From positions 1 to 52,479 of the IMG/VR virus record IMGVR_UViG_3300027850_000083: 52,479 bases of DNA, one strand, 5' to 3'. Each line of letters starts with the position of its first letter. Within the stretch, counting starts at the first letter, position 1. The notes below the pieces were generated by a model. It made no database searches and was not told the origin of the DNA. It saw only the letters and a list, made by a program, of their open reading frames with translations. The position numbers and the translations under genes are program-made. Shown in pieces: positions 1 to 38,618 of the stretch. Source of the stretch: a virus (taxonomy: Duplodnaviria; Caudoviricetes).

Positions 1-60
1 TGTCACGATGATATCACATCTGCGAAGAAAGGTGTACCACCACGATGATATCCTTGCTGC

Positions 61-321: not shown

Positions 322-358
322 CGACGAGAGCCCGCCCTTCGGGGCGGGCTTCGTCGTT
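322..358 (+). terminator. GC-rich hairpin with C(UUCG)G loop, probable intrinsic terminator
   Basis: cgacga-g-agcccgccc-ttcg-gggcgggct-tcgtcg just after the stop of 61..285. Confidence 0.65.
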
Positions 359-376
359 GTCAGCTAGCTTCCGCGA

Positions 377-1045
377 ATGCCACCGATCGGGAAGAAGGAT
401 CTCAACGGGCGCGGGCTCGCTCACCCGGCTCCGTACACTCGCTCGATCGTCGAGCTGTTCGGAACGCTGGAACTGAGCGGACGTGTGCTCGACCCGTTCG
501 CCGGGACCGGGCTCATCCACGACCTCGGGCTCGAAGCCGTAGGGGTCGAGATCGAGCCGGAGTGGGCCGAGCTGCGGGAGGGGACCATCATCGGAGATGC
601 CACGCGGCTGCCGTTCCGGGATGTCTGCTTCGACGCTGTGGTCACGTCATGCACCTACGGCAACCGCTACGCCGATCACCACAAGGCGAAGGACGGATCG
701 CTGCGCCGCACGTACACCCACGACCTCGGGCGCGACTTGCACCAGCGCAACACCGGCAAGATGGCCTGGAAGGGTCCGGGCGTTGGGCCGTACTGCGAGC
801 TGCACGAAGAAGCGTGGAGTGAGGTCTGGCGCGTGCTCGCGCGCGACGGCCGCTTCGTGCTGAACATCAAGAACCACATCAAGGCGGGCGTCGAACAGAT
901 GGTCACGGAGTGGCACGCCGAGCTGCTCTCGACGATTGGCTTCAACATGGTCCAGGCGCATCAGGTGTTCACGCCAGGAATGAGAGTCGGAGCCAATCGC
1001 CAACGGGTCCCGTTCGAGTCGGTCCTGGTGTGGCGCAAGCCATGA
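377..1045 (+). CDS. amino (N4C/N6A)-type DNA methyltransferase
   Basis: SAM-binding motif I VLDPFAGTG, GVEIE, GDA, and FDAVVTSCTY where catalytic (S/D/N)PPY is expected; WRVL..GRFVLN. Confidence 0.75.
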   Translation: MPPIGKKDLNGRGLAHPAPYTRSIVELFGTLELSGRVLDPFAGTGLIHDLGLEAVGVEIEPEWAELREGTIIGDATRLPFRDVCFDAVVTSCTYGNRYADHHKAKDGSLRRTYTHDLGRDLHQRNTGKMAWKGPGVGPYCELHEEAWSEVWRVLARDGRFVLNIKNHIKAGVEQMVTEWHAELLSTIGFNMVQAHQVFTPGMRVGANRQRVPFESVLVWRKP

Positions 1046-1050
1046 TGGTG

Positions 1051-1059
1051 TGATATAAT
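1051..1059 (+). promoter_or_regulatory. extended -10 promoter TGATATAAT
   Basis: perfect TGnTATAAT in a high-GC genome, directly upstream of the structured region. Confidence 0.7.
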
Positions 1060-1061
1060 CG

Positions 1062-1460
1062 TGTTGTCGGAGGGGAGAGTCCCCGCCGGGAAGGAGTTCG
1101 CTTGACCAACAGGTGGCCCGGAGACGGGTGAGCCCCGCGAGTCAGGCGGGCGCCCTACGGACCGGAGCACGCGTTCCACCGTGCTGTGACCCCAGGCTCT
1201 GTCCGATCTACCGGTGAGCGTGCCGGTAGCACTCCTCTTGGGCATCCGTGGTGTGGGGGCCGTCTCGGTTTGCTGGTCCGAGCAGCACGAAGTCCAGGAG
1301 ATGACCCGAGAGGGGACAGGCTCGTGGGGCCGAGCGTGCAGCGGCCCGAGCAGGAAACTCCCTGGAGTTCGGATTCGCGGGAGTGTGTGACACGTCGGTC
1401 CGGGGGTGGCGCCCCATCAGTGACGCAGGCGTGAAGCGGCTCTCCCCGCCCGGTGACGGA
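1062..1460 (+). ncRNA. candidate large structured ncRNA (~400 nt), family unknown
   Basis: own promoter; 5'/3' closing stem 1072-1081/1438-1447; nested stems 1148-1164/1396-1414 and 1232-1246/1300-1315; hairpin 1208-1229; crossing helix 1134-1143/1372-1381; no credible CDS. Confidence 0.6.
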
Positions 1461-1523
1461 GTTGAGACCGAGTGGCCGACCAACCACTCGGGAGGCTCGC
1501 TTCGAAACCGGGCTCCTTCGCGA

Positions 1524-1571
1524 AACAACCGCCCAACGAAACGCCCTCGCGCGCGCTCGCGGGCGTACGTT
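1524..1571 (+). promoter_or_regulatory. 19-bp phage motif + 23 nt + -10 (TACGTT)
   Basis: AACAACCGCCCAACGAAAC at 1524-1542, TACGTT at 1566-1571, in-frame GTG 6 nt downstream. Confidence 0.6.
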
Positions 1572-1577
1572 GCGCGC

Positions 1578-2102
1578 GTGCTCGTATACGAGGACTTCGT
1601 CGAAGTAGCTCGACGATCAGCGGGACACTGGTGGGTGAAGCACACGAATCGCGGTCGACGATGGCCGTGGCTCGAACGTGCTGACGCCGAGAGCGAAGCG
1701 TGCGTAGCGCTCGTCAGGATCTGCGAGCTGTATGACGAGACCGTCGTCGTCGACATGCCACCTGAGCCGTTCGTCGCTCAACGGGTGCAGTGGGCGATGA
1801 TCGACTGGCACCGCCTCGTCTATGGCCGTGGTGATTGCCCGCCGCCTCCGCTGCATTTCGATTTCGATCTGTTCGCAGACGGCGGCTGGCTTGTTGATCA
1901 AGAAGTGATCGCCGAGTTCGAGCGGATCGAAGACCATGTCATGCTCGCCCAGATGATCGATGACCTCCCCGAGCGTGAGCGCGTGGTGATGCGTGGGCGC
2001 AGCCGGGGGCTCCGGTTGGCTGACATCGCTGACGACCTCGGGCTCACCGAAGGTCGGATCTGCCAGATCGAGAAGCAAGCGCTCGCTCGGCTCGCCTGCT
2101 AG
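1578..2102 (+). CDS. sigma-70 family RNA polymerase sigma factor (regions 2 and 4)
   Basis: region 2-like DAESEACVALVR..YD..FVAQRVQWAMIDWHR; region 4 HTH LPERERVVM..LRLADIADDLGLTEGRICQIEKQALARL; start re-called at GTG 1578. Confidence 0.8.
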   Translation: MLVYEDFVEVARRSAGHWWVKHTNRGRRWPWLERADAESEACVALVRICELYDETVVVDMPPEPFVAQRVQWAMIDWHRLVYGRGDCPPPPLHFDFDLFADGGWLVDQEVIAEFERIEDHVMLAQMIDDLPERERVVMRGRSRGLRLADIADDLGLTEGRICQIEKQALARLAC

Positions 2103-2160: not shown

Positions 2161-2868
2161 ATGCCCATCGGGGCGCATCAGCCTGTCGGCAACGCAGCGC
2201 AAGGTGGTTGCCGACCGGGTGCGACGGCACTTCACCAATACATCATCGATCGGTGGGGTGCAGGCGTTGGCAGCTTCGGGTGCTACAACCCGAACAGCCG
2301 CGCCGGATCGGGCTGGTCGCTGCACCGCGAAGGCCGTGCGATCGACGTGAGCATCGCCTCCTGGGCGAAGCAGAAAGGCGACCAGATCTTCACCTGGTGC
2401 GTCGCCAACGCCGATCACCTCGGACTGCAAGAGATCCAGTGGTCCGGGCGGATCTGGACGTCACGCAGGAATCAAGAAGGCATTCGCATTGACACGAGCG
2501 CGGCACGCGGCCTGCACTTCGACCACATCCACGTCGGACTCGCGTACGGCAATTCGTTCATCCCACCCGGCGGTGGCGGCATCCCCGGTGGTGGCAGCAC
2601 GCCCCCACCCTCACAAGGAGCAGAGGACTTGGCACAAGTACCGCAAGCGGAGTGGGACGAGATCCGGAACAAGGTGCGCGAGATCGACAACACCATGCAC
2701 AACAACGTCTACGGCGTGGCGATGAAGACGAACTCCATCGAGACGCTCGCGATGACCCGCAAGATCCGCGACGCGATCTTCAACAACACCTTCGGCGTGG
2801 CGCTCCAGAACATCACCATCGACACGTGGACCAAGGTCGGCGCGATGTTCGCACGAATGAAGGCTTGA
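2161..2868 (+). CDS. M15/DD-peptidase-fold Zn peptidase, probable endolysin
   Basis: SLHREGRAIDV and HFDHIHV zinc motifs, Gly/Pro linker, short C-terminal repeats (NNVYGVA/NNTFGVA). Confidence 0.7.
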   Translation: MPIGAHQPVGNAAQGGCRPGATALHQYIIDRWGAGVGSFGCYNPNSRAGSGWSLHREGRAIDVSIASWAKQKGDQIFTWCVANADHLGLQEIQWSGRIWTSRRNQEGIRIDTSAARGLHFDHIHVGLAYGNSFIPPGGGGIPGGGSTPPPSQGAEDLAQVPQAEWDEIRNKVREIDNTMHNNVYGVAMKTNSIETLAMTRKIRDAIFNNTFGVALQNITIDTWTKVGAMFARMKA

Positions 2869-4947: not shown

Positions 4948-4999
4948 ATTATATCACATCAGCAAAGCGCCCGCACACCCTTTGTTCGTATGATATAAT
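4948..4999. promoter_or_regulatory. divergent pair of extended -10 promoters
   Basis: TGATATAAT on - strand (4948-4956) and on + strand (4991-4999); + strand ATG 6 nt downstream (leaderless). Confidence 0.75.
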
Positions 5000-5801: not shown

Positions 5802-6121
5802 AGGCGCTCACGATCACGCTCGAAGGCGTCGGTTCCATCCGCAACGGGGACTCCGTGCGCGTGCGCCCGCGCAAGGCTCGCGGGCGAGACGGCTTCACCG
5901 GGATCTTCCGAGGTGCTGTTCTTGACGACGCCGGTTCAGTACGGTGGCTCGAAGTCTTCGGCGGGCGCAACGGTGGATTCAACGCCGTGACCCCTGAGCG
6001 AATCGAGTGGGCCACCAGTGCAGGACGAGATCACGGTACTGACGCCGACGTTGCCCGACCGGAAGGATCTGCTGGAGCAAGCAAGAGAGTCCGTCGCCGT
6101 TCAGCTTCACGCCGCCGCTGA
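5798..6121 (+). CDS. hypothetical protein
   Basis: GTGA-coupled start; 3' end overlaps the next gene by ~100 nt. Confidence 0.5.
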   Translation: MKALTITLEGVGSIRNGDSVRVRPRKARGRDGFTGIFRGAVLDDAGSVRWLEVFGGRNGGFNAVTPERIEWATSAGRDHGTDADVARPEGSAGASKRVRRRSASRRR

Positions 6122-6551
6122 CCACGTCGTCATCACCGACGACGTCCAGGCAGGACCGGCGAAGACCCGCAACGCGGGGCTGGAGCACGTCTCCACACCG
6201 TGGACGGCGTTCCTCGACGACGACGACCTCATGGATCGTGGGCACCTCAAGCTGCTGATCGCTGAGGCCGAACGCTCCGAGGCGACCGTCGTTTGGAGCT
6301 GGTGCCGCCGCATCGACGGCGGGCCGGAGATTCCTCGGGCAGCGTTCTTCGATCCGATCGAGCTGCGCCAGGACAACTTCATCCCGATCACCGTGCTCGC
6401 TCAGACGGACGCTGTGCGCGCGGTTGGTGGGTTCGACCCAACGGCCGAACACGAAGATCACGATCTCTGGCTGCGGATGCTGGACAACGGGGCTAGGTTC
6501 AGCGTTGTACGGGCCGTGACATGGAGCTATCGGGGCCGGGAGAACGAGTGA
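6018..6551 (+). CDS. glycosyltransferase family 2
   Basis: ITVLTPT, RNAGL, WTAFLDDDD, VGGFD, HEDHDLWLRM. Confidence 0.85.
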   Translation: MQDEITVLTPTLPDRKDLLEQARESVAVQLHAAADHVVITDDVQAGPAKTRNAGLEHVSTPWTAFLDDDDLMDRGHLKLLIAEAERSEATVVWSWCRRIDGGPEIPRAAFFDPIELRQDNFIPITVLAQTDAVRAVGGFDPTAEHEDHDLWLRMLDNGARFSVVRAVTWSYRGRENE

Positions 6552-6817
6552 CGCCGTGGATCATGCTGGCTGTGGCAGCCGCTGTGCTGATCTTCCTCTT
6601 CCTCGTACTCGCGATGTTGCACACGTCGAAGGGCGCCGATGATCGAGTACGACGACTGCGACCCCCTTCCGATTTCGGTGTGCGTGCCCACCATCCAAGC
6701 CAGGGCGGACCGCTTGCTTCGCCGGGCGATCGAGAGCGTGCTGACCCAGCAGCGGCTACCGGCCCAGATCGTGGTGGTCCCGGATCGGGATCGCATGGGA
6801 GCGGGCCACACCCGTAA
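6548..6817 (+). CDS. possible small membrane protein
   Basis: GTGA-coupled start and a strong N-terminal TM helix, but long overlap with 6639..7262. Confidence 0.35.
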   Translation: MTPWIMLAVAAAVLIFLFLVLAMLHTSKGADDRVRRLRPPSDFGVRAHHPSQGGPLASPGDRERADPAAATGPDRGGPGSGSHGSGPHP

Positions 6818-7262
6818 CCGCTCCATCGATCTTGCTGATCAGGAGTGGACGGCGTTCCTCGACGACGACGACCTGCTGTACCCGATGCATTTGCGCGTGC
6901 TCTACGAGTGCGCGATGGAGTCGGGCGCCGACATCGTCTACCCGTGGTTCGACTGCACCGCTCCGTTGATGATCGAGCGTCACTTCCCCGACCGTGAGTT
7001 CGAGGTCTGGGACAACGACTATCCGCAGATCATCCCGGTCACCGCTCTGGTGCGTTCCGAGTTCGCCAAGCAGGCGCGCTTCGGCGTCGTCACGCGCGAG
7101 AGCATCAAGGACGGAAGCTGGGATGGTGATGACTGGCCGTTCTGGCGTGACTGCATGAAGCTCGGAGCGAAGATCGTTCACCTCCCGCTGCGCACTTGGC
7201 TTTGGGTCCATCACTACGATCGAACCGGATCGAACACGTCCGGGCTCCCCTGGCGGTGGTAG
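6639..7262 (+). CDS. glycosyltransferase family 2 (paralog of 6018..6551)
   Basis: ISVCVPT, AIESVLTQ, TRN, WTAFLDDDD, DDWPFW. Confidence 0.85.
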   Translation: MIEYDDCDPLPISVCVPTIQARADRLLRRAIESVLTQQRLPAQIVVVPDRDRMGAGHTRNRSIDLADQEWTAFLDDDDLLYPMHLRVLYECAMESGADIVYPWFDCTAPLMIERHFPDREFEVWDNDYPQIIPVTALVRSEFAKQARFGVVTRESIKDGSWDGDDWPFWRDCMKLGAKIVHLPLRTWLWVHHYDRTGSNTSGLPWRW

Positions 7263-7273
7263 GAAACACTTTC

Positions 7274-7927
7274 GTGATCTCAATCGTGTTTCCCTATCGA
7301 TCCGACGGCGGAGAGCGTGACCGCATCCTGACCTGGGTCGAAGCGCGCTACCGACACCAGCTCCCCGATGCGGAGATCGTCTACGGCTGCGACCACGGCG
7401 ATCCGCAGTTCAACCGAGGCCAAGCCATCAACGACGGCGTCGAACAGTCGACCGGCGACATCTTGGTGATCAGCGACATCGACGTCTTCGTGCGCACGGT
7501 GAACATGCGAGGAGCCATCCAAGTCGCAGCTCGGGACATCGACAACGCCTGGGTGATCCCGTGGTCGACGTTCTACGTGCTGACCAAACCAGCGAGTGAG
7601 CACGTTCGCTACGCCAACCCCGTCGATGACATCTTGGTCGAGAACCTCGACTGGGAAGACCGTCTTCCGCCCGTTCCTCAAGGCATGTTCGTGGTCGGGC
7701 GATCGGCGTTCGAGCGTACTGGCGGCATGGACGAAGGCTTCATCGGATGGGGGTTTGAAGACAACGCGTTCGCTCACGCAGCGCGCAACACAGCGAAGCT
7801 ACGCCTCTCGACACTGCCGGGCGGGTGTGGGCACATCTGGCATCCACGCACGGTCAACGATGGGTTCAGTCAGCCCAACATCGATCACAATCGTCAACGC
7901 TGGGAGACACTCAGATGCGGGTCTTAG
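7274..7927 (+). CDS. GT-A glycosyltransferase with GT7-like (galactosyltransferase) C-terminus
   Basis: IVFPYR, FNRGQAINDG, SDID, GGMDEGFIGWGFED, HIWH. Confidence 0.85.
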   Translation: MISIVFPYRSDGGERDRILTWVEARYRHQLPDAEIVYGCDHGDPQFNRGQAINDGVEQSTGDILVISDIDVFVRTVNMRGAIQVAARDIDNAWVIPWSTFYVLTKPASEHVRYANPVDDILVENLDWEDRLPPVPQGMFVVGRSAFERTGGMDEGFIGWGFEDNAFAHAARNTAKLRLSTLPGGCGHIWHPRTVNDGFSQPNIDHNRQRWETLRCGS

Positions 7928-9141
7928 TTGCTGGGCTCGGCAAGTTGGGCGCTCCTCTCATGGCCGTGCTCGCCAACAGCGGAGTCGAGGCGATCGGTTA
8001 CGACCGCAACCCGAAGACTGTCGCCTTGATCAACGACCGCATCGCCCCCGTGGCTGAGCCTGGTCTCCAAGAGCTGATCGAGTCAGCGCCGTTCTTCACT
8101 GCCACGATCAACCCAGCAGCAGCCGAGATGTGCGACTACGTCTTCATCGTCGTGCCAACGCCATCGACGAAGCAGTCGCGACGCTTCTCGAACCGCTACG
8201 TGCTCGAAGCGATCGACGCCGTTGGGCCACACCTACAACCCGACACCGTCGTCGTCGTCAATTCGACGGTGATGCCGGGCTCGATGTCGGGAGTCATCCG
8301 ACAGTCGCTCCGTGACAGCACGCATCACGACGAAGAGTTGGGTCTCTGCTACAACCCCGAGTTCATCGCACTGGGCGAGGTCATCGACGGAATCCGTCAT
8401 CCGAGCTTCGTGCTGATCGGTGCAGAGCAGCAATGGGCTGCGGACCGCCTTACCGACCTCACGCGCAAGTTCGTCTCTCCGGTCACGACTCCGGTCAAGA
8501 TCATGTCGTCGATCGATGCTGAGATCACGAAGCTGGCGCTCAACAACTACGTCACAATGAAGATCAGCTTCGCCAACGCCATCGGCGAGCTGTGCGATCG
8601 CAACTACGGCGCTGACGCCGAGACGGTGCTCAACGCAGTCGGGCTCGACTTCCGAGTGGGTCAGCCCTACCTGCGACCGGCCACGGCCTACGGCGGACCG
8701 TGTTTCCCGCGCGATGTTCGAGCGTTCCAGGCATTGGTCGATGACGACCACATCCTTGGAGCGTTCGCTCGCGCGACCGAATCAGTCAACGACCACCAGA
8801 CTGAACGCATGATCACCAAGCTGCTCGCTACCGGCAAACGCACCTTCGCTGTCCTGGGTGTGAGCTACAAGCCGGGGACGGCTGTCGACGACGAATCGCC
8901 AGGGCTCCACCTGGCGGCGCGACTCGTCGAACAAGGCATGACAGTGTTCGTTCACGAACCGGCGCTCGGGCACGAGAATCCGTGCGACCTGATTCGCCAA
9001 GCTGATGTCGTCGTCGTGATGACTCCGGATCAACGCTTCCGCGGGATCGAAGAGTTCGGTGAGAAGCGGCTGTTGCTGGATCCGTGGCGGATCATCAAGG
9101 GTGACCAGTGGGATCGGATTCCGTGGGGAGGAACAGCGTGA
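7915..9141 (+). CDS. UDP-glucose/GDP-mannose 6-dehydrogenase family protein
   Basis: GLGKLG Rossmann motif, VPTP, STVMPG, YNPEF, catalytic YGGPCFPRD, GVSYKPGT..ESP. Confidence 0.92.
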   Translation: MRVLVAGLGKLGAPLMAVLANSGVEAIGYDRNPKTVALINDRIAPVAEPGLQELIESAPFFTATINPAAAEMCDYVFIVVPTPSTKQSRRFSNRYVLEAIDAVGPHLQPDTVVVVNSTVMPGSMSGVIRQSLRDSTHHDEELGLCYNPEFIALGEVIDGIRHPSFVLIGAEQQWAADRLTDLTRKFVSPVTTPVKIMSSIDAEITKLALNNYVTMKISFANAIGELCDRNYGADAETVLNAVGLDFRVGQPYLRPATAYGGPCFPRDVRAFQALVDDDHILGAFARATESVNDHQTERMITKLLATGKRTFAVLGVSYKPGTAVDDESPGLHLAARLVEQGMTVFVHEPALGHENPCDLIRQADVVVVMTPDQRFRGIEEFGEKRLLLDPWRIIKGDQWDRIPWGGTA

Positions 9142-9929
9142 GGGTCACCTACAGCGCTCTCGGGAAAGTCGGTCGCCTCGGAAACCAACTGTGGCAGATT
9201 GCGTCGACAGCAGGCATCGCTGAGCGGCGCGACGCTGTGCCGATGTTCGACCCTGGCTGGATCTACCGCCCGTGGTTCTGCATCCCTGATGAGTTCTTCG
9301 AGTACGACGGCAAAGACGACATCGTCGACTCGACATGGATGTGCGAAGAGCTGGACCTTCGCGCGCGCCCGTACCTCCAGCGATACTCACTCATGGAGCC
9401 TGTTGCCGCTCAAGTGCGCGAGTGGTTCCAACCGAGCGATCTAGCGATGGAGCTGATCAACAAGCACCGCGGACTCATCCCCGGACCAGGACTCACCACG
9501 GCAGTCCACGTCCGCCGCGGTGACAACTTGCTGCCTGATCACGACGGCTACTACGAGGTCCCCGGTGAGAGCTACTACCGGCGTGCGCTCGGGCACTTCG
9601 ATGGCTACCCGGTGTTCTTCTCCGACGACATCGACTGGTGCATGAAGACGTTCCAGGATCTCGACGCTGTGTTCATCGTGCCGAACATCCTCACGGTTCC
9701 CGAGGATGGAATCGGAGAACGCGTCACTCCGGCGCTCGACTGGCTCGACATGCAGCTCATGGCACTCTGCGACTACCACGTCATCTCGAACTCGACGTAC
9801 TCATGGTGGGGAGCGTTCCTCAGTGGTGATGCTGTCGTAGCGCGTCCGAAGTGTTGGTTCGGTCCGAAGATCGACTGGACCAACGTCGACTTGATGATGC
9901 CGAAAGGATGGTTCGACGTTCCGTGCTGA
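9138..9929 (+). CDS. alpha-1,2-fucosyltransferase family (GT11)
   Basis: GRLGNQL, AVHVRRGD, FFSDDIDW, ISNSTYSWWGA. Confidence 0.9.
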   Translation: MRVTYSALGKVGRLGNQLWQIASTAGIAERRDAVPMFDPGWIYRPWFCIPDEFFEYDGKDDIVDSTWMCEELDLRARPYLQRYSLMEPVAAQVREWFQPSDLAMELINKHRGLIPGPGLTTAVHVRRGDNLLPDHDGYYEVPGESYYRRALGHFDGYPVFFSDDIDWCMKTFQDLDAVFIVPNILTVPEDGIGERVTPALDWLDMQLMALCDYHVISNSTYSWWGAFLSGDAVVARPKCWFGPKIDWTNVDLMMPKGWFDVPC

Positions 9930-10600
9930 TGAACTTCAACGAGCTGGTCACCAAGCACAACATGCGAATCAAGAGGGTTCTGCATGTTGGTGGGCACCTT
10001 GGTGAAGAAGCGAACGACTACCGACACAATGGCGTTCGTCACGTCACTTGGGTCGAAGCAGATCCGATCGTCGCTCGCGATCTTGAACGAGCGGTGCGAC
10101 GCTTTCACCACCGAGTGATCAACGCACTCGTCACCGATCAAGACAACGTCGAGATGGAGTTCTACGTCACGAACGAGCAGAGCCTCTCGTCGTCGGTGCT
10201 GCATTTCGGTACGCACGCGAAGACGTCGCCGGACATGGTCGTCGAAGAAACGAAGGTGCTCACGTCACGCACGATCAACTCGCTGATGGCCGAAGGATCG
10301 CAGCGAGACTGGCGAGAGATCGACCTCCTGAACATGGACGTGCAAGGTGCTGAGCTGATGGTGCTGCGTGGGGCGACAGATCTGTTGCCTCAACTTCGCT
10401 ACGTGCTCAGTGAAGTCAATCACCAAGACGTCTACCAGAGCTGCGCTCAGATCGAACAACTCGACGCACTGTTGCTTCCGTACGGACTGGTGCGCATGGA
10501 CACGTACTTCACGATGGACGGCTGGGGCGACGCGCTCTGGGTCAAGCGAAAGGAACTCGCGAGTGATCAAGGTGCTAGTGACGGGCTACAACTGCCCTGA
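9929..10600 (+). CDS. FkbM-family methyltransferase
   Basis: LHVGGHLGEE, VEADP, SSSVL, LLNMDVQGAELMVLRGA, WGDALW. Confidence 0.88.
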   Translation: MNFNELVTKHNMRIKRVLHVGGHLGEEANDYRHNGVRHVTWVEADPIVARDLERAVRRFHHRVINALVTDQDNVEMEFYVTNEQSLSSSVLHFGTHAKTSPDMVVEETKVLTSRTINSLMAEGSQRDWREIDLLNMDVQGAELMVLRGATDLLPQLRYVLSEVNHQDVYQSCAQIEQLDALLLPYGLVRMDTYFTMDGWGDALWVKRKELASDQGASDGLQLP

Positions 10601-11318
10601 GTGGATCGGAAGGGGACTGGCGAGCGTTCGTGACCAAGATCTCGATGAACCGTTCGAGGTCTGTATGGTCGACGATGGATCGACCGACCCAGCGCAACGT
10701 GAAGCAATGCTGGCTGTGCTCGACACTGTCCCAGAAGTTCAGACGTGGCATCTGCTGCTCCGAGGATCGAACCGCAAGGCGACGTTCTCCGTGCAGCAGG
10801 CGATGATCATCCTTGACCCCGACCCCTACGACATTGTCGTGCTGCTCGATGGTGACGACTACCTCGCCCCGTGGGCGCTCTCGTACTTGCGCGACATGTA
10901 CGAACGCGATGCCAACTGTTGGCTGACCTACGGACAGTACGAGCCCGTCCCACACAACACCGGGCAAGTGCTTGCGTCCGCGTACCCGCGTGAGGTGCTT
11001 GATCGTCGCACGTTCCGTCAGCACCCGATCGTCTTCAACCACCCTTACAGTTTCCGCTACTTCCTCTTCTCGAAGGTGCGGATAGCGGACGCGCAAGACG
11101 CATCGGGAAACTGGTTCCGCGCTGGGATGGACCAGGTGTACCTCTACCCGATGTTGGAGATGGCTGGGAAGCACCACATCCGGTTCATCGACAAGACGCT
11201 CTACTACTACAACGCTGTGAACCCGCGGAGCGAGACACACATCCAAGACGAGGAGCCGAATCCAGGAGAGCTGATTCGGTCCCTTCCGAAACGCGAATTG
11301 CTTCGACACCGCCCGTAA
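10563..11318 (+). CDS. glycosyltransferase family 2
   Basis: GYNCPEWI..LASV..Q, VDDGSTD, LLDGDDYL, LYYYN. Confidence 0.85.
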   Translation: MIKVLVTGYNCPEWIGRGLASVRDQDLDEPFEVCMVDDGSTDPAQREAMLAVLDTVPEVQTWHLLLRGSNRKATFSVQQAMIILDPDPYDIVVLLDGDDYLAPWALSYLRDMYERDANCWLTYGQYEPVPHNTGQVLASAYPREVLDRRTFRQHPIVFNHPYSFRYFLFSKVRIADAQDASGNWFRAGMDQVYLYPMLEMAGKHHIRFIDKTLYYYNAVNPRSETHIQDEEPNPGELIRSLPKRELLRHRP

Positions 11319-11329
11319 AGTCACGCTCC

Positions 11330-12292
11330 ATGTGGGCAGTGACCGGGGCCGGGGGCTTCATCGGCGGGCACATGGTGAAGCGACTCATCGCGATGGGCGA
11401 AGACGTTGTCGGCATCGACCAGAAGTCGATCATGGACTGGTATCAGGTGCCGAGCGGCGAGGCGTGTCGCGCTGGCGTGAACCTCAGTCACGTCGACGAC
11501 GCTGTGAAGGCACTGCACGGTGCCAAGCATGTGATCCACCTCGCCGCTGACATGGGCGGGATGGGCTTCATCGAGACGCACAAGGCCGAGTGCATGTTGA
11601 GCGTGCTCAGCTCGACGGCGGTGCTGATCGGAGCGGCCCGCAACCAGGCTCACGGGCTCTTCTACGCCAGCTCGGCGTGCGTGTACCCCGGCTACCTCCA
11701 GGACACCACGGGGGTGGCTGATGGGCTCCGTGAGGCTGATGCCTACCCGGCGATGCCCGAGGACGGCTACGGGTACGAGAAGCTCTTCTCTGAGCGGATG
11801 TCCCGGCACTTCATGGAAGACTTTCACCTTCCGACTTTCGTGGGCCGCTACCACAACGTCTACGGACCGCACGGGACGTGGGAGGGCGGGCGCGAGAAGG
11901 CGCCAGCGGCAATCTGTCGGAAGGTGATCGAGGCGAAGCTCAGCGGGATCCACGACATCGAGATCTGGGGCGACGGTGAGCAGACCCGGAGCTTCATGTA
12001 CGTCGACGACTGCGTCGAAGGCACGCTGCGCCTCATGCGCTCGGACTTCCATGACCCCATCAACATCGGGTCCGATCGGCTAGTGACGATCAACGAGCTG
12101 GTGACGATCGTGGAGAAGATCGCGGGGATTTGGCTGGACAGGCACTACAAGCTGGATGCACCGTTGGGTGTGCGCGGCCGGAACTCCAACAACGAGCTGA
12201 TCCGTGCGACGCTCGGGTGGGAACCCAAGGTCTCGCTCGAAGACGGGATGGCCGAGACGTACGACTGGATCTACTCTCAGATCACTCAGTGA
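11330..12292 (+). CDS. NAD-dependent epimerase, GDP-mannose 3',5'-epimerase-like
   Basis: TGAGGFIG, HLAADMGGMGFI, SSACVYP, YGYEK, GGREKAPAAICRK, GVRGRNSNN match GME signatures. Confidence 0.85.
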   Translation: MWAVTGAGGFIGGHMVKRLIAMGEDVVGIDQKSIMDWYQVPSGEACRAGVNLSHVDDAVKALHGAKHVIHLAADMGGMGFIETHKAECMLSVLSSTAVLIGAARNQAHGLFYASSACVYPGYLQDTTGVADGLREADAYPAMPEDGYGYEKLFSERMSRHFMEDFHLPTFVGRYHNVYGPHGTWEGGREKAPAAICRKVIEAKLSGIHDIEIWGDGEQTRSFMYVDDCVEGTLRLMRSDFHDPINIGSDRLVTINELVTIVEKIAGIWLDRHYKLDAPLGVRGRNSNNELIRATLGWEPKVSLEDGMAETYDWIYSQITQ

Positions 12293-16376: not shown

Positions 16377-19022
16377 ATGGCAGATACACACGTTTCCTCC
16401 CCGCTCCGCCGACACTTCTCGGTGAGCGGGGAGGATCCGTACGCGCAGGTTGAGTGGGAGATCAGCACTGCGCAGGTCGGCACGTTCGTGCAGGAGAACG
16501 TGTGCTTTCCGAAGACGTGGTCAGCCGATGCTCGCAACATCGTTGCTCAGAAATACTTCCGGGGAACGCTCGGCACACTGGAGCGTGAGACGTCACTCCA
16601 GCAGGTGATCGAGCGCGTCGTCACGACGATCGTGAAGTGGTCGTTGGCGGACCGCGGCTCCCTCTCCGACCCTCAGATCGAAGATGTGCTCGCTGACGAA
16701 CTGCGCACGCTCATGCTCGATCAGCGCATGGCGTTCAACTCGCCGGTGTGGTTCAACCTCGGTGTTCCCGGTGAGGTGCAACAGGGCAGTGCGTGCTTTA
16801 TCCTCTCCGTTGACGACGACATGGACTCGATCCTGAACTGGATCCACGAAGAGGGCCGGATCTTCAAGCACGGATCCGGTGCTGGTGTGAACCTCTCCAA
16901 GATTCGTGCGAGCAGTGAACACCTCAAGGGCGGAGGCACCGCGAGCGGGCCGGTGAGCTTCATGCGGGGCGCTGACGCGTCGGCCGGGACGATCAAGTCA
17001 GGCGGCAAGACGCGCCGCGCCGCGAAGATGGTCCTGCTCGACGTCGATCACCCCGACGTCGAAGAGTTCATCTGGTGCAAGGCGAAGGAAGAGCGCAAGA
17101 TCCGTGCGCTCGAATCGGCGGGCTTCGACATGGGGCTCAACGGCGAAGATGCTCACTCGGTGCAGTACCAGAACGCCAACAACAGCGTGCGCCTCAGCGA
17201 CTCATTCATGGAGGCAGCAACGGCCGCTGGAGATGCCCCGTGGACGCTCACACCCAGGGTCAACGGTGACAACACCCAGGTCTCAGCGCACGACCTGCTC
17301 CACCAGATCGCTCAGGCAGCCTGGGAATGTGCTGATCCCGGCGTGCAGTTCTCGGGCACGATCAACGGGTGGCACACGCTCAGCGCCCACAGCCCGATCA
17401 ACGGCTCGAACCCGTGCAGCGAGTACCTCTCGATCGACAACTCGGCGTGCAACCTCGCCTCGATCAACCTGCTCAAGTTCCTGCACACCGACTCCACCTT
17501 CGACATCGAAGGTTTCCGCCAGGCTGTGCGGATCACCATCACCGCGATGGATGCGATCGCCGGGAATGCCGACTACCCGACCGAAGCAATCGGCGAGAAC
17601 ACCCGCAAGTTCCGCCAGCTCGGTCTCGGCTACACCAACCTCGGTGCGCTGCTCATGGCCGTCGGCGTGGCGTACGACTCCGACGACGGGCGCGCCATCG
17701 CCGGTGCGATCACCTCGTTGATGTGTGGACAGGCGTATCTCCAGTCGAGCGTGCTCGCAGAACGCACCGAACCGTTCTCGGAGTGGGACAAACACAAGTC
17801 AGCGACAATGGGCGTGCTACACCGACACACCGACGCAGCGAAGCTCGAACACCAGACGCAACGTGCGCGTAACGGAGCTGCTCATCCGCTCATCGCTCCG
17901 GTGTTCCGCGCAGCAGTCGACGACTGGGAGTCAGTCGTCATCGAAGCTGATCGCGTGGGCGTGCGCAACGCTCAAGCGTGCGTGCTTGCTCCCACGGGGA
18001 CGATCTCCTTCTTCATGGACGCAGACACGACTGGCATCGAACCCGAGTTCGCGTTGGTGAAGACGAAGACGCTGGTCGGTGGCGGCACGATCGAGACAGT
18101 CAACCGAGGCATGGTGCAAGCGCTCACGAATCTTGGCTACAACCACATCGAACGAGACACCATCTACGAGTACCTCTCGACCCGTGGCGAGTTGGGCGGG
18201 CTGATCCGAGACGAGCATCGCGAGATCTTCGCCACGTCTGTCGGAGCGGACGCCATCCACTACAGCGCTCACGTCAAGATGCTCGCCGCCGTGCAACCGT
18301 TCCTCTCTGGGGCAGCGAGCAAGACCGTGAACCTCCCCGAAGACGCCACGGTTGCGGACTTCATCGACGTAATCACCACGGCGTGGGAGACCGGCGTCAA
18401 GTGCTTGGCGCTCTACCGAGACAACTCGAAGGCGACCCAGCCTCTCAACATCGGCATCGAGAAGACAACCGCGGTGCTGGCCGAGCCCGCACGCAAGAAG
18501 CTCGAAACTCAGCGTCGGGCGCGCACGTACAGCTTCCATGTTGGCGAGTGCAAGGGCTACATCACGGCGGGAGAGTACGACGACGGCAAGCTCGGTGAGC
18601 TGTTCATCAAGGTGGCGAAGAACGGATCGACGCTCGCCGGGATCATGGACAGCTTTGCTATCAGCGTCAGCCTCGGACTCCAGTACGGAGTTCCGCTCGC
18701 TGCGTACGTCGACAAGTTCATGCACACTCGCTTCGAGCCGATGGGCATGACCAACGACTCCGACGTGCGCATCTCCAGCTCGATCGTCGACTACGTCTTC
18801 CGGCGCCTTGCTCTCGACTACCTCAGCTCCGACGAGCGAGAGACGCTCGGCATCGTCTCGACCGGTGAACAGATTCAGCAGATGGTTGCTCAGGACATCG
18901 AGAGGCCCTCGGCGGCTCAATCACTCGGCGTTGTCTGCACCGAGTGCGGGTCTGGGATCCTCCGCCGTGCAGGTTCGTGCCTCTCATGCGAAAGATGTGG
19001 CGCGAGTACCGGTTGCGGGTGA
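16377..19022 (+). CDS. nrdJ: class II (adenosylcobalamin-dependent) ribonucleotide reductase
   Basis: QKYF, FNSPVWFN, SACFI, GGKTRRAAKM, NPCSE, ACNLAS, APTGTISF, C-terminal TSCPD-type domain and Zn ribbon. Confidence 0.95.
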   Translation: MADTHVSSPLRRHFSVSGEDPYAQVEWEISTAQVGTFVQENVCFPKTWSADARNIVAQKYFRGTLGTLERETSLQQVIERVVTTIVKWSLADRGSLSDPQIEDVLADELRTLMLDQRMAFNSPVWFNLGVPGEVQQGSACFILSVDDDMDSILNWIHEEGRIFKHGSGAGVNLSKIRASSEHLKGGGTASGPVSFMRGADASAGTIKSGGKTRRAAKMVLLDVDHPDVEEFIWCKAKEERKIRALESAGFDMGLNGEDAHSVQYQNANNSVRLSDSFMEAATAAGDAPWTLTPRVNGDNTQVSAHDLLHQIAQAAWECADPGVQFSGTINGWHTLSAHSPINGSNPCSEYLSIDNSACNLASINLLKFLHTDSTFDIEGFRQAVRITITAMDAIAGNADYPTEAIGENTRKFRQLGLGYTNLGALLMAVGVAYDSDDGRAIAGAITSLMCGQAYLQSSVLAERTEPFSEWDKHKSATMGVLHRHTDAAKLEHQTQRARNGAAHPLIAPVFRAAVDDWESVVIEADRVGVRNAQACVLAPTGTISFFMDADTTGIEPEFALVKTKTLVGGGTIETVNRGMVQALTNLGYNHIERDTIYEYLSTRGELGGLIRDEHREIFATSVGADAIHYSAHVKMLAAVQPFLSGAASKTVNLPEDATVADFIDVITTAWETGVKCLALYRDNSKATQPLNIGIEKTTAVLAEPARKKLETQRRARTYSFHVGECKGYITAGEYDDGKLGELFIKVAKNGSTLAGIMDSFAISVSLGLQYGVPLAAYVDKFMHTRFEPMGMTNDSDVRISSSIVDYVFRRLALDYLSSDERETLGIVSTGEQIQQMVAQDIERPSAAQSLGVVCTECGSGILRRAGSCLSCERCGASTGCG

Positions 19023-25200: not shown

Positions 25201-26239
25201 GGTGCGCGAAGGCGTCTTCGGCTTCATCAGACTTGCTGATCGGCTCTACGAACTCGGATCGAAGACAGCGTCCGGAATGGAGTTCGGCGACTACCCCGGC
25301 CACCCGTTCCGCGGAAACCAGTGGACGGATGGTGAAGGCGGCTCGTCGCTCGACGTCTTCAAGGGACCAGCGCGCACGAACGAAGCGACGATGTCAGCCT
25401 TCTCGAAGGAGATTCAGGACAAGATTTCTTCGAACCTAGAGAAGAAGTTCGGTGTCACCGCAGCGCAGGGCAAGGCGAACATCGAAGCGTTGCTCGACCG
25501 TGCGAAGGGCACAGCGGTGTGGGCAGCAGGATCGCAGTGGTATCAGAAGGCGAACGATGACGCAACGGAGATTGCAGCGCAGTTCGGACTGTCCGAGGAG
25601 ACGATCGTCGGAGCGTTCGCTGCGATTAGTCCCGGAAAGTATTGGGACGAGGAAGAAGTCGAAGTGCGGGCGATGGCCGAGTATGTCGGCAGTGACCAGC
25701 CGCTCAATCTCTCGGACGACCGCATGGAACTGCTGAACGCTCAGCTCGAAGCGATCGGTGAGCGTGCGGAGAACGGAACGAAGTTCTCCGAGTTCAGCGA
25801 TCGTGGCGCTGTGTTCGCCATGCGTCAGCAGTACCTCGATGACGGCGGCGCTGGCTGGGGGATCGGCAAGAGCTACGACAACTACGAGAAGGGCGTGTCG
25901 ATTCTGCGGGGGGCCGATCCCGACGACGTGCTGAACGGTGTCAAGGTTCGCAGCTTCTACAACAACATCGGCAACCCGGACGACCCGAGTGACGTCACGG
26001 TCGACATTCAGATGGTGCAGGCGTTCGCCAACGACAAGCAGGCTGAGAACAGTTCGTCCGTGATGGGCGCCCCGTCCATCTCCCGCAAGGGTGAGGGCAA
26101 GACCGAGATCGGTCCGACCCCGCTCGTCGCTGATGTCTTGCGGGAGGTCGCTAGTTCCTATGATATAATTCCGCAACAGGCTCAAGCGATCGCCTGGATG
26201 CAGTGGAAAGCCGAGAACCCTCCGGCGTCGAAGCGATGA
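22226..26239 (+). CDS. repeat-delimited multi-effector polyprotein A (5 modules: ART-like, zincin, HDxxGH domain, unknown, HhH-GPD-like)
   Basis: start re-called at ATG 22226 overlapping the portal stop; five copies of E(F/L)GDYPGHPFRGNQ(W/H)T separate unrelated domains. Confidence 0.85.
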   Translation: MVTANQRLVVELGDYPGHPFRGNQWTKVDADDGDGFSELKNGVDLTDHHYAADKAGSKSPLLVNDERIQTGVPIKLTGLHVAENRGAEIVKNGFTDPMRSGGKAGAGTYLHIAGDRSGDYAHFVRAGNESAAKNPNARQISTDVTLQNPVVIRLGLGAKLENEDLYDALASARNEPRDKVWADSTTLSKTLTRDENLASPIDRAITKMFQEAGHDGLVILKPSGNGGHGSMAVVYDPENITIRDSKPLGAGKDKTLAAALEFGDYPGHPFRGNQWTKVEGEGSKESGSRFGDQTTRLMSEGGPAHAPYIRRMSEQLAKFSKVTGIAPTITRATGNIADRRGALAVTSLTEKYGLRIDLNPELLTKENLDGLSDKKFFSPGTSTPEGLITHEWAHAAVAQMTHDGEFDSSFGAGGRWDRSPYPDTGDVWRPSTIAVLDAFSNETGQYEKWESAANDVSRYAKTNASEFLAETYTDGKLNPGASEYAKQFADWFDGRVAEHAVNNDPMIKQTRESIAASIDGDWQPQWLEFGDYPGHPFRGNQWTDGAGEEKIDVEKFIAEHPRKDGEELFTWQGRVVADLSPQQQSDVLFHVRERYEPSPVVAEGLKRFIEEKGLPTDIIDSIIDTPVAVQEADAVARYFERTPDQSDDPKVIAAYEDFKRQSAEQWDFMVKPESEGGMGIRVEFTDKVNPYATAADQARDINENRRVVIESGLGGAHDATMTTEEYDRFRAVHDVFGHAGIGGGFDRHGEYQAWLVHAAMYEGAGRDAMSTEYHGVNSASWSGAEGSPGTGKSLLLPEKWSNPPWDREGLTAAGVRSTKAAEKIASALDLDAAFARRFDKLPWHPLPKRKSAEFGDYPGHPFRGNQHTDAAGGDKEDSGFAEAKKPRGNSDVERPEGTSSYEWEYDLRSLENPDIAGGTQGNRSHLITPIIKNAGYDPGDWVDETTQLNEYGDELWPTKHLTKDFFDEYPAVKAKLEEVAKQPWTAEAHGTTVREGVFGFIRLADRLYELGSKTASGMEFGDYPGHPFRGNQWTDGEGGSSLDVFKGPARTNEATMSAFSKEIQDKISSNLEKKFGVTAAQGKANIEALLDRAKGTAVWAAGSQWYQKANDDATEIAAQFGLSEETIVGAFAAISPGKYWDEEEVEVRAMAEYVGSDQPLNLSDDRMELLNAQLEAIGERAENGTKFSEFSDRGAVFAMRQQYLDDGGAGWGIGKSYDNYEKGVSILRGADPDDVLNGVKVRSFYNNIGNPDDPSDVTVDIQMVQAFANDKQAENSSSVMGAPSISRKGEGKTEIGPTPLVADVLREVASSYDIIPQQAQAIAWMQWKAENPPASKR
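26161..26169 (+). promoter_or_regulatory. intragenic extended -10 TGATATAAT
   Basis: identical to the intergenic promoters at 1051 and 4991; encoded by AT-rich codons atypical for the gene; 66 nt before ATG 26236. Confidence 0.5.
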
Positions 26240-27321
26240 AGACCATGAAGAGACTCGATCCGTTCAAGGGTGTGGACCCTGAGAACGACCCCACGCCCGA
26301 GAATCTCTGGCTGACTGAGTTGATGAATGCCACCACTCCTGGAGAGGTAGAGCGCATTCGCGGGCGCAAGCCCATCACTGCTGCTGCTGCTGCTGATGGT
26401 GATTGGACGCCCCCGTTGGAGTTCGGCGACTACCCCGGCCACCCGTTCAGAGGGAATCAGTGGACGGATGGCGGCGGATCCAAGCAGAGTGCTCTCACGG
26501 CTGACCAGTTTGCCAAGAAGCTCGGGAATCAGACTGGCCCTCGACTCTTCAAAGCGCGTGATGCTGGACCTGCGATGGTGAAACTCATGGATGGTCGTCC
26601 CGAGTTGAAGGAGCAGATGGATGCGTTGTTAGCGCAACCAGGGACCAAGGACCGTCTCGACGCGTACTGGGAGAGCAACCAGCGTGGTCCGCGCCCAGAC
26701 GACTACACGGCACTCGCGACCGAACGAGCTGACAACTACAAAGTCGAGTGGGATCGCTTCGGGTCCAACGAGCTGGGCGTCACGACGGTAGCGATTCAGC
26801 AGGCCACGGCGGACGAGTTCAGCGCAGTCTCTAGTGGGTTCAACAACTACCGCAAGGATGCTCTCGATTCAGAGACCAACCGAGAAGCGACCGACCTCAC
26901 CTCATCCGAAGGAGAGATAGCGCGCGCGTACGTTCGAGCGGAGTACGACGCAACGCAGTCGTACTTTGCTGATCGTGGGCTCAAGCCAGACGACGAGGTC
27001 ACACTGCTTCGTGGGACATCGCTCACTGATTCAGATGGCAACGAGCTTCCGATCCCAGCGGGATTTCCTCCCCGTGGTAGCGACACGGAGTCCAAGGTCG
27101 ATACGACGTTGAACCCAGCATCGTCGTTCACCTTCGATCCGAAGGTTGCTGCGATGTTCGCCGATTCTTCTGCGGGCGGGTGGGTGTTGCGCGACACGGT
27201 GAAGGTGAGCGACATGCTCTCCATCCCGAAGATTGGCCGTGGCGTGGGCACCGAGGCAGAGGTTCTCGTCAAAGGCGGAACGCGTTCACTCGACGTGAAG
27301 TTCCGACCAGCAGAGTTCTGA
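26236..27321 (+). CDS. effector protein B: tag + R-S-E type ADP-ribosyltransferase
   Basis: ATGA coupling; one tag; LLRG...ASSFT...FA...EAEVLV pattern. Confidence 0.75.
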   Translation: MKTMKRLDPFKGVDPENDPTPENLWLTELMNATTPGEVERIRGRKPITAAAAADGDWTPPLEFGDYPGHPFRGNQWTDGGGSKQSALTADQFAKKLGNQTGPRLFKARDAGPAMVKLMDGRPELKEQMDALLAQPGTKDRLDAYWESNQRGPRPDDYTALATERADNYKVEWDRFGSNELGVTTVAIQQATADEFSAVSSGFNNYRKDALDSETNREATDLTSSEGEIARAYVRAEYDATQSYFADRGLKPDDEVTLLRGTSLTDSDGNELPIPAGFPPRGSDTESKVDTTLNPASSFTFDPKVAAMFADSSAGGWVLRDTVKVSDMLSIPKIGRGVGTEAEVLVKGGTRSLDVKFRPAEF

Positions 27322-38573: not shown

Positions 38574-38618
38574 AGCCCCTGGAGTGGTGAGAGCGCTCTC
38601 ACTGCTCCAGGGGCTTTC
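38574..38618 (+). terminator. long hairpin terminator after the capsid gene
   Basis: agcccctggagtggtgaga-gcgc-tctcactgctccaggggct followed by tt. Confidence 0.8.

What the first reader, a model, noticed from the sequence alone, without database searches (positions are those of the whole stretch)
1051..1460. Candidate novel ~400-nt pseudoknotted ncRNA upstream of the phage sigma factor
Seen: a perfect extended -10 followed by a region with no credible CDS but extensive pairing. Closing stem: GGGGAGAGTC(1072-81)/GGCTCTCCCC(1438-47). Nested stems: GGGCGCC(1148-54)/GGCGCCC(1408-14), CGGACCG(1158-64)/CGGTCCG(1396-1402), 1232-46/1300-15. Hairpins: CCCG-GAGA-CGGG (GNRA loop, 1117-28) and CTACCGG..CCGGTAG (1208-29). 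A 10-bp helix CCCGCGAGTC(1134-43)/GATTCGCGGG(1372-81) crosses the 1148/1414 stem, implying a pseudoknot or switch. I cannot assign it to tmRNA, RNase P, Ms1/6S or an intron. Caveat: high GC inflates chance pairing.
Basis: partly seen in the sequence, partly recalled or inferred. Interest (0 to 1): 0.8.

Follow-up and report, generated by a model that had tools for sequence, protein, structure and literature searches.

The report
Long untranslated leader before phage sigma gene
A 532-base gene-free stretch behind a strong phage promoter most likely serves as a long leader of the phage's own sigma-factor gene, and the elaborate 400-base RNA fold proposed for it is no better than chance apart from one central 150-base hairpin element.

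Summary
The sequence facts hold. Window 1046-1577 is non-coding. It lies between a DNA methyltransferase gene (377-1045) and an ECF-like sigma factor gene, whose likely start is GTG 1578. It opens with the extended -10 TGATATAAT (1051-1059), a motif present exactly 4 times in the 52 kb window (0.54 TATAAT expected). The other 3 copies each lie within about 60 nt upstream of an ORF.

The claimed 400-nt pseudoknotted fold is not supported.
- Fold z-scores are -1.6 to -1.75 (6-7 of 100 shuffles fold as well).
- There are 8 helices of 10 bp or more, against 4.8±2.3 in shuffles.
- The closing helix is matched by 8% of shuffles.
- No terminator bounds the RNA.

One sub-element stands out, a Y-shaped imperfect palindrome at 1183-1335. 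Its z-score is -2.4 on the + strand and -4.1 on the - strand, and -3.65 with Watson-Crick pairs only.

There is no Rfam, tRNA or tmRNA match. The sigma factor and the leader are orphans, with no homologue in any collection searched, so covariation cannot be tested. No RNA run holds the stretch.

Best reading (0.5): a long 5' leader of the sigma gene. A free-standing novel ncRNA: about 0.1.

The parts
377..1045 (+). DNA methyltransferase gene (upstream neighbour). Its stop TGA 1043-1045 lies 5 nt before the promoter motif.
   Evidence: Pfam N6_N4_Mtase 5.9e-6 and Methyltransf_11 4e-6. Strong codon-position GC signal.
1051..1059 (+). Extended -10 promoter TGATATAAT with no recognisable -35. The inferred transcription start is about G1066.
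   Evidence: TATAAT occurs 4 times in 52,479 bases on both strands (0.54±0.77 expected; 0 of 100 shuffles reach 4), and all 4 read TGATATAAT. The other three lie upstream of ORF starts: 4956-4948(-) before ATG 4923, 4991-4999(+) before ATG 5006, and 26161-26169(+) before ORF 26203. The start site is inferred from the 7-nt spacing at ATG 5006.
1066..1577 (+). Untranslated leader of about 512 nt. GC is 0.689 and the part 1066-1457 is G-rich.
   Evidence: No coding signal. No terminator-like site. GC lies at the 98.5th percentile of 512-nt windows; G 0.388 against C 0.304 in 1066-1457.
1063..1081 (+). 5' strand of the long-range closing helix. It pairs with 1438-1457 as 8 bp, an internal loop, then 10 bp.
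   Evidence: Predicted pair probabilities 0.90 and 0.99, but the helix is not better than chance (8.2% of 500 shuffles).
1091..1131 (+). AAGGAG, a 5-nt spacer, then TTG 1102 opening a 9-codon ORF (MTNRWPGDG, stop at 1129-1131). It overlaps the GNRA-loop hairpin 1116-1129.
   Evidence: Shine-Dalgarno scan. Hairpin pair probability 0.998. Function untested; possibly chance.
1183..1335 (.). Y-shaped imperfect palindrome: outer stem 1183-1204/1314-1335, side hairpin 1208-1215/1222-1229, inner arm 1234-1246/1300-1313 with a variable tip.
   Evidence: z -2.44 on + and -4.13 on -. Ranks 112 and 3 of 5232 windows. 35 Watson-Crick pairs are shared by both strands. Watson-Crick-only z is -3.65 and -3.02.
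1438..1457 (+). 3' strand of the closing helix.
1458..1577 (+). C-rich distal leader (C/G about 1.4) holding the hairpin 1468-1475/1484-1491. There is no Shine-Dalgarno sequence before GTG 1578.
   Evidence: Composition. Fold z -0.60, with 45 of 200 shuffles as good.
1578..2102 (+). Sigma factor gene (174 aa, ECF-like: region 2 plus region 4).
   Evidence: Sigma70_r4 1.3e-9. PHROG 351 sigma factor 2.8e-10. The N-termini of 11 distant relatives align at about residue 60-75 of ORF 1383-2102. The upstream extension 1383-1577 scores 0.04 per codon against 0.41 for 1578-2099.

Best explanation
The stretch is a long (about 512 nt) untranslated 5' leader of the phage's own sigma-factor gene.

Shown:
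- An extended -10 promoter, TGATATAAT at 1051-1059, is one of four identical copies in the window. The other three each sit just upstream of an ORF.
- There is no coding capacity between that promoter and GTG 1578.
- There is no terminator-like hairpin in between.
- Inside the leader lies one statistically unusual element, a ~150-nt Y-shaped imperfect palindrome at 1183-1335.

Inferred:
- The host RNA polymerase starts near G1066 and reads through the leader into the sigma gene, so sigma is made early.
- The G-rich, heavily self-paired first 390 nt keep the naked RNA folded. This would hinder 5'-end-dependent decay and Rho loading.
- The long quasi-continuous helix of the central element (outer stem stacked on the inner arm, about 30 bp) is the most likely functional part. 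It could be a double-strand-specific processing site (RNase III type) or a binding or stability element that sets how much sigma mRNA is translated.
- The C-rich, weakly folded last 120 nt, without a Shine-Dalgarno sequence, is where translation or Rho-dependent attenuation of sigma would be decided.

For: Promoter: 4 of 4 TATAAT in the window are TGATATAAT, with 0.54 expected. The 3 other copies lie about 7 to 60 nt upstream of ORF starts on the same strand.

Non-coding: flat codon-position GC, codon scores 0.04/-0.30/0.04 against 0.41-0.70 for real genes, and no family match for the gap ORFs.

Sigma start at 1578: alignment with 11 relatives.

No terminator in 1060-1577, while classic hairpin-plus-U terminators exist at 322-360 and 38574-38620.

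Central element: z -2.44 and -4.13, ranks 112 and 3 of 5232.

Composition: GC 0.689 (98.5th percentile); C/G 0.6-0.9 over most of 1066-1457 and about 1.4 in 1466-1577.
Against: No RNA data: none of the 2 listed runs is RNA, so neither the start site nor read-through is shown.

The whole-leader fold is not significantly stable (z -1.75).

The central element is stronger on the antisense strand and equally strong with Watson-Crick pairs only. It could therefore act as DNA, or be a neutral palindrome.

The start codon region is only weakly paired in the predicted folds, so translational occlusion is not evident.

No homologue exists to show that the leader is conserved at all. Between two lake populations the leader differs by only one 3-nt deletion, which is too little to tell.

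A GC of 0.69 is also what neutral DNA would drift to in a phage with GC3 of about 0.77.
Confidence: 0.5

Rival explanations
1. Functionless spacer. The gap is a recombination scar, a decayed gene or an inserted palindromic (MITE-like) element, transcribed passively on the way to the sigma gene. Its pairings are by-products of high GC.
For: Fold and helix statistics are within chance. The methyltransferase occurs in unrelated contexts in 5 other viral contigs, so it is a mobile gene beside a junction. The sigma gene is an orphan. A 5-bp direct repeat CGTGC (1180-1184 and 1335-1339) flanks the palindrome (read). GC 0.69 fits neutral drift towards the phage's GC3.
Against: Phage genomes are compact, and 532 nt directly behind one of only four perfect promoters is an unlikely place for junk. 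No second copy of the palindrome was found in the window, in G001, in viral contigs by pattern or in 401 sampled Actinomycetota genomes. No protein remnant is detectable.
Confidence: 0.27
2. One reading: a free-standing, novel ~390-nt structured RNA. Its 5' end is closed on 1438-1457, and it is released by processing and acts in trans, for instance on RNA polymerase in the manner of 6S or Ms1 RNA while the phage sigma takes over.
For: Own promoter. No coding. The closing helix starts within 3 nt of the inferred start site and has predicted probability 0.9-0.99. The IGR is unusually GC-rich. It lies next to a sigma gene. It belongs to no known family, so it would be new.
Against: z is only -1.6. 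The closing helix is matched by 8% of shuffles. The inner stems have probability 0.011 or less, and the crossing helix competes with a better 12-bp partner. There is no terminator near 1460. The predicted fold is multi-branched, not the rod with a central bubble of 6S. There are no homologues and no RNA evidence.
Confidence: 0.1
3. A DNA-level element. The 150-bp imperfect palindrome acts as double- or single-stranded DNA, for example as a protein binding site, a cruciform, or a replication or recombination site.
For: The signal is strand-symmetric. Watson-Crick-only folding gives z -3.65 (+) and -3.02 (-), and 35 pairs are shared by both strands.
Against: There are no iterons or AT-rich unwinding stretch. 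No replication or recombination gene lies next to it. Any RNA helix made of Watson-Crick pairs gives the same symmetry.
Confidence: 0.07
4. Leader-peptide or nut-like control. The strong ribosome site AAGGAG-N5-TTG (1091-1104) and its 9-codon ORF ending at the GNRA hairpin (1116-1129) form a translated sensor. Alternatively the hairpin is a protein-binding antitermination site about 50 nt from the start, as in lambdoid early leaders.
For: It is the best Shine-Dalgarno-plus-start combination in the gap. The same AAGGAG-N5-start layout opens the real gene at 2974. Hairpin probability is 0.998.
Against: AAGGAG occurs 19 times on the + strand, only 9 of them have a start codon 3-10 nt behind, and few of those open a sizeable ORF, so the motif alone is weak evidence. 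No arrest motif or antiterminator protein was identified, and nothing is conserved to compare.
Confidence: 0.06

Closest known systems
Long 5' leader of the E. coli rpoS (sigma S) mRNA (recalled knowledge: a leader of several hundred nt that folds back on the ribosome site and is opened by small RNAs with Hfq)
   Same: A several-hundred-nt untranslated, self-paired leader sits directly in front of a sigma factor gene, so sigma output can be set after transcription starts.
   Different: There is no sequence or model similarity. Occlusion of the start region is not evident in the predicted folds. No small-RNA partners are known. This is a phage gene, not a host gene.
Phage lambda PL-nutL-N leader and the T7 early RNase III sites (recalled knowledge)
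   Same: An early promoter is followed by a long leader carrying a small GNRA-type hairpin near the 5' end and a large irregular hairpin before an early regulatory gene. The outer stem plus inner arm here give about 30 bp of near-continuous helix, enough for a double-strand-specific nuclease.
   Different: No N-like protein was identified, no box consensus was tested, and cleavage is untested. The regulated gene is a sigma factor.
6S RNA and Ms1 RNA (RNA-polymerase-binding RNAs)
   Same: A non-coding RNA of a few hundred nt linked by position to sigma and RNA polymerase biology.
   Different: No covariance-model match at E up to 10. The predicted fold is multi-branched rather than a rod with a central bubble. 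There is no terminator.
GOLLD and ROOL large ornate RNAs of phages and lake metagenomes (PMC12286853: search listing and the start of the abstract seen)
   Same: A large non-coding stretch in a phage from fresh water.
   Different: No Rfam match. It is much shorter, has no conserved relatives and no significant fold.
Miniature palindromic repeat elements (MITE or Correia-like; recalled knowledge)
   Same: A ~150-bp imperfect palindrome that folds on either strand, with a 5-bp direct repeat at its edges.
   Different: No other copy was found in anything searched. The host genome is unknown.

Membership tests
Any Rfam 15 family (including 6S, Ms1, RNase P, tmRNA, GOLLD, ROOL, HEARO, introns, riboswitches) | Covariance-model score at or above the family's gathering threshold | tested here: not met
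   0 matches in the whole window. At E up to 10 in 900-1800 there were only Afu_190 (14 bits against 35) and DUF3800-XI (12.3 bits against 37.8), both on the - strand.
tRNA / tmRNA | ARAGORN detection | tested here: not met
   0 genes in the window.
Free-standing small or medium ncRNA gene | Own promoter | tested here: met
   TGATATAAT 1051-1059, one of 4 identical copies.
Free-standing small or medium ncRNA gene | Defined 3' end (terminator or processing site) before the next gene | tested here: not met
   No terminator-like site in 1060-1577. Hairpins 1208-29 and 1468-91 lack U tails. Canonical terminators exist elsewhere in the phage. Processing is not testable here.
Free-standing small or medium ncRNA gene | Fold more stable than shuffles, or covariation | tested here: not met
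   z -1.62, -1.65 and -1.75. Covariation is untestable because no homologues exist.
Regulatory 5' leader of the downstream gene | Promoter, then no ORF and no terminator up to the regulated gene on the same strand | tested here: met
Regulatory 5' leader of the downstream gene | Structure that occludes or exposes the translation start, or a conditional terminator | tested here: inconclusive
   GTG 1578 lies in a weak 4-6-bp hairpin. A 14-nt 79% complementary pairing 1541-54/1572-85 is possible. The C-rich distal segment could load Rho. None of this is tested.
Regulatory 5' leader of the downstream gene | Transcript demonstrated to run from leader into gene | not testable with these tools
   No RNA run holds the stretch.
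6S-like RNA polymerase decoy | Long rod-like helix with a large central bubble that mimics an open promoter | tested here: not met
   The predicted MFE and centroid folds are multi-branched with a three-way core.
MITE-like palindromic repeat | Multiple copies in a genome | tested here: not met
   Single copy in the window. None in G001. 0 pattern hits in viral contigs. 1 chance hit in genome contigs. The host genome is unknown, so this is not conclusive.

The most novel reading that the evidence does not exclude
The first ~390 nt after the promoter form one RNA domain whose first transcribed bases are clamped to 1438-1457. Built around the Y-shaped core 1183-1335, this domain is a new, so far single-member class of phage RNA. 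It would control the phage's own sigma factor in cis, or act on RNA polymerase in trans after being cut from the mRNA.
Probability: 0.12. Interest if true: 0.7.

Novelty: new member of a known kind. Interest (0 to 1): 0.25.

Why it matters
If the leader is functional, it would show that a phage regulates its take-over sigma factor after transcription through a very long leader. That is known for host sigma factors (rpoS) but, as far as I know, not described for phage ones. My two literature searches turned up nothing on this, but they were not exhaustive. As it stands, the practical value is a cautionary one. In a 69% GC sequence, ten-base helices, 'closing stems' and apparent pseudoknots arise by chance. 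Only the 150-nt central palindrome and the promoter family deserve follow-up.

Tried and rejected
Homologue hunting. All searches were blank or chance-level.
- blastn of 1000-1700 against phages: no match.
- blastn of 1060-1460 at E up to 10: 7 records with 27-36-nt chance matches. Plasmids: none.
- Sigma protein in viral contigs: 7 pattern stretches, 0 relatives. In phages by tblastn: none.
- Sigma protein in metagenome contigs: 81 stretches, 3 relatives, matching region 4 only.
- Word-indexed protein search: only P0001, 99% identical, among 115 candidates.
- Exhaustive HMMER search: 133 hits at E up to 1e-3; the best non-self hit is 36% identical at E 1.9e-10.
- Methyltransferase relatives L002-L006 (42-50% identity) share no DNA with the leader.
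- Terminase relatives reach at most 54% identity. The 309-aa early protein has none.
- The endolysin-like gene led to the 136.5-kb phage record G001 (83% identity). G001 has GC 0.507, shares only that gene, a glycosyltransferase cluster and two short fragments, and has neither sigma nor leader.
- A pattern for the palindrome arms gave 0 hits in viral contigs and 1 in genome contigs, a Dactylosporangium contig. On alignment it shares only the 15-mer and a local hairpin.
- In 401 sampled Actinomycetota genomes, 3 had 26-58-nt matches at E about 5e-4, in low-complexity GC runs. One of the three (G003) is an unpublished genome; nothing rests on it.

Sequencing runs. No RNA holder is listed. Two freshwater DNA runs hold the stretch. 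The second differs in 1046-1577 by one 3-nt deletion at 1524, which gives no variation usable for covariation.

Other points.
- A 15-nt identity of 1087-1101 with 44073-44087 lies inside the tape-measure gene and is chance.
- Small ORFs 1214-1390, 1186-1434 and 1113-1217, and the sigma ORF extension 1383-1577, are rejected as genes.
- A covariance model of the element was not built.

Full report
**Setting.**
The window is a 52,479-base IMG/VR virus record (CheckV estimate 43% complete). Its GC is 0.62, and it is held by two freshwater metagenome DNA runs. Nearly all genes run on the + strand. The finding lies between two genes.
- Upstream is a DNA methyltransferase gene, 377-1045 (Pfam N6_N4_Mtase and Methyltransf_11).
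- Downstream is a sigma factor gene (Sigma70_r4 1.3e-9; PHROG 351 'RNA polymerase sigma factor' 2.8e-10).

**Is the stretch non-coding, and where does the sigma gene start?**
The longest sigma ORF runs 1383-2102. Three results place its start later.
- The codon-position GC signature of this phage's genes (GC3 0.7-0.95, GC2 0.3-0.5) only sets in at about 1620. From about 1050 to 1600 all three positions sit at 0.60-0.75.
- A codon log-odds score trained on 16 long ORFs of the window gives 0.41 per codon for 1578-2099. The extensions 1383-1577 and 1431-1577 score 0.04 and 0.02. The gap ORFs 1214-1387, 1186-1431 and 1155-1487(-) score 0.04, -0.30 and -0.38. Real small genes score 0.41-0.70.
- The N-termini of 11 distant sigma relatives align at about residue 60-75 of the 239-aa ORF.

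The likely start is therefore GTG 1578 (174 aa), and the non-coding gap is 1046-1577, 532 nt. None of the gap ORFs matches Pfam or PHROGs, and the stop-to-stop frames look like translated high-GC noise.

**The promoter is real.**
TATAAT occurs only 4 times on both strands of the window. Dinucleotide shuffles give 0.54±0.77, and 0 of 100 reach 4. All four read TGATATAAT.
- Two copies form a divergent pair at 4956-4948(-) and 4991-4999(+), between a - strand gene (ATG 4923) and a + strand gene. That + strand gene's ATG at 5006 lies 7 nt behind the -10, so its mRNA is probably leaderless.
- The fourth copy, 26161-26169, precedes ORF 26203-27321.
- By the same spacing, transcription from 1051-1059 should start near G1066. 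This is inference.

A related motif, GATATGATCGT, follows the stop of the gene ending at 2868. One-mismatch copies face outward at the left end of the record.

**Is the claimed fold more than chance?**
- MFE against dinucleotide shuffles:
  - 1051-1460 + strand: -201.6 against -189.95±7.2, z -1.62, 7 of 100 as good.
  - 1051-1460 - strand: z -2.20, 1 of 100.
  - 1063-1457: z -1.65, 6 of 100.
  - 1066-1600: z -1.75, 6 of 100.
  - 1458-1660: z -0.60, 45 of 200.
- In a GC-adjusted scan of the whole window with 400-nt windows, the region ranks 19 and 32 of 261 on + and 161 and 151 on -.
- Maximal helices (G-U allowed) in 1063-1457: 34 of 8 bp or more, 16 of 9 or more, 8 of 10 or more, 1 of 12. In 200 shuffles the means are 30.7, 12.3, 4.83 and 0.75. 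Shuffles reach the real counts in 31.5%, 19%, 11% and 55% of cases.
- Several helices compete for the same strand. The 'pseudoknot' strand 1134-43 has a better nested partner at 1319-30 (12 bp, probability 0.98). A fold forced to contain them is 5.5 kcal/mol worse than the MFE.
- The closing helix (1063-70/1450-57 plus 1072-81/1438-47) is predicted with probability 0.90 and 0.99, and it begins almost at the inferred start site. Even so, the 5' 18-mer's best duplex (-26.1 kcal/mol) is equalled in 8.2% of 500 shuffles of the rest, and by 13% of 165 other 18-mers of the leader.

**What does stand out.**
A local scan singled out 1181-1340, and the fold tool confirmed it.
- The - strand gives -74.1 against -56.6±4.2, z -4.13, 0 of 200 shuffles, with an MFE ensemble frequency of 0.105.
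- The + strand gives -79.1 against -68.8±4.2, z -2.44, 5 of 200.
- Among 5232 windows of 160 nt across the phage, it ranks 3 (-) and 112 (+).
- The fold is a three-way junction. The outer stem is 1183-1204/1314-1335, the side hairpin is 1208-15/1222-29, and the inner arm is 1234-46/1300-13 with an ambiguous tip. 35 Watson-Crick pairs are common to both strands.
- With G-U pairs forbidden, z is -3.65 (+) and -3.02 (-). The signal is therefore that of an imperfect DNA palindrome, and it does not say which strand, or whether RNA or DNA, is the active form.
- In the full-length fold the outer stem competes with 1132-43/1319-30.

The other top loci of the scan include classic terminators: 322-360 after gene 61-285, and 38574-38620 after the gene ending at 38556. 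The scan therefore does find real elements, about five loci per 52 kb. One of them falling in a given 530-nt gap has a chance of roughly 0.07 (my estimate).

**No end, no family, no relatives, no RNA data.**
- No terminator-like hairpin lies in 1060-1577. The two clean hairpins, 1208-29 and 1468-91, have no U tail. A transcript from 1066 should therefore run into the sigma gene.
- Rfam gives 0 matches at gathering in the window and only two chance-level matches at E 4.2 and 6.6, both on the - strand. ARAGORN finds nothing.
- Every homologue search was blank or chance-level.
- The one phage record that shares a neighbouring gene at 83% identity (G001, 136.5 kb, GC 0.507) has neither the sigma gene nor the leader.
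- The second lake population differs in the gap by a single 3-nt deletion at 1524.
- Covariation, the decisive test, cannot be run. No RNA run holds the stretch.

**Other features of the leader.**
- GC is 0.689, at the 98.5th percentile of 512-nt windows. The part 1066-1457 is G-rich (G 0.388, C 0.304). The last 120 nt are C-rich, with C/G about 1.4.
- High GC in a long intergenic region is a classic pointer to structured RNA. In a phage with GC3 of about 0.77 it is also what neutral drift would give.
- A strong ribosome site, AAGGAG-N5-TTG (1091-1104), opens a 9-codon ORF that ends right after the GNRA hairpin 1116-1129. The same AAGGAG-N5-start layout opens the real gene at 2974. Most AAGGAG in the window are not gene starts, so this may be chance.

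**Reading.**
- Best supported (0.5): a long 5' leader of the sigma gene, driven by one of the phage's four perfect extended -10 promoters. The central palindrome is its only candidate functional structure. It could be a processing, stability or binding site (inferred). The C-rich distal part, which lacks a Shine-Dalgarno sequence, is the place where translation or Rho-dependent attenuation would act (inferred).
- Functionless spacer, scar or inserted palindrome: 0.27.
- DNA-level element: 0.07.
- uORF or nut-like control: 0.06.

**Comparison with what is known.**
In how it would work, the nearest parallels are the long rpoS leader, and the lambda N leader and T7 RNase III sites. These are recalled knowledge, not tested here. 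It is not a member of any curated RNA family.

**Verdict.**
- Observation: partly confirmed.
- Novelty: at most a new, orphan example of a long regulatory leader.
- Interest: 0.25.

Noticed in passing
window 4948-4999, 26161-26169, 1051-1059, 8-16(-): A phage promoter family: four exact TGATATAAT and one one-mismatch copy. It includes a divergent pair whose + member sits 7 nt before ATG 5006, so that mRNA is probably leaderless. No -35 is recognisable.
   Followed up: partly
window 322-360 and 38574-38620: Textbook intrinsic terminators (perfect GC hairpins with U-rich tails) lie after gene 61-285 and after the gene ending at 38556. The simple terminator scan missed the first one.
   Followed up: partly
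window 2307-2600 (inside gene 2161-2868, peptidase/endolysin-like): Both lake runs carry alternative contigs with 19 differences in 2359-2425 and a diverged 95-nt block at 2459-2555. This is a hypervariable patch inside one gene. The same gene is 83% identical (protein) to a gene in a 136.5-kb phage of GC 0.507 (G001) that is otherwise barely related, which suggests horizontal transfer.
   Followed up: partly
window 16395-16435: A very strong hairpin (about 17 bp) sits just inside the annotated start of the 881-aa ORF 16377-19022. It is the top + strand locus of the 160-nt fold scan. The true start may lie downstream, or the hairpin may be regulatory.
   Followed up: no
window 6018-12292 against G001 49.4-58.2 kb: A glycosyltransferase / sugar-modifying gene cluster is shared at 27-59% protein identity with phage record G001.
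   Followed up: no
window 1091-1131: A strong Shine-Dalgarno sequence plus TTG opens a 9-codon ORF (MTNRWPGDG) that ends at a GNRA-loop hairpin about 50 nt from the inferred transcription start.
   Followed up: partly
window 1578-2102: The sigma factor is an orphan. Among 1.84 billion representative proteins, the best non-self hit is 36% identical (E 1.9e-10).
   Followed up: yes
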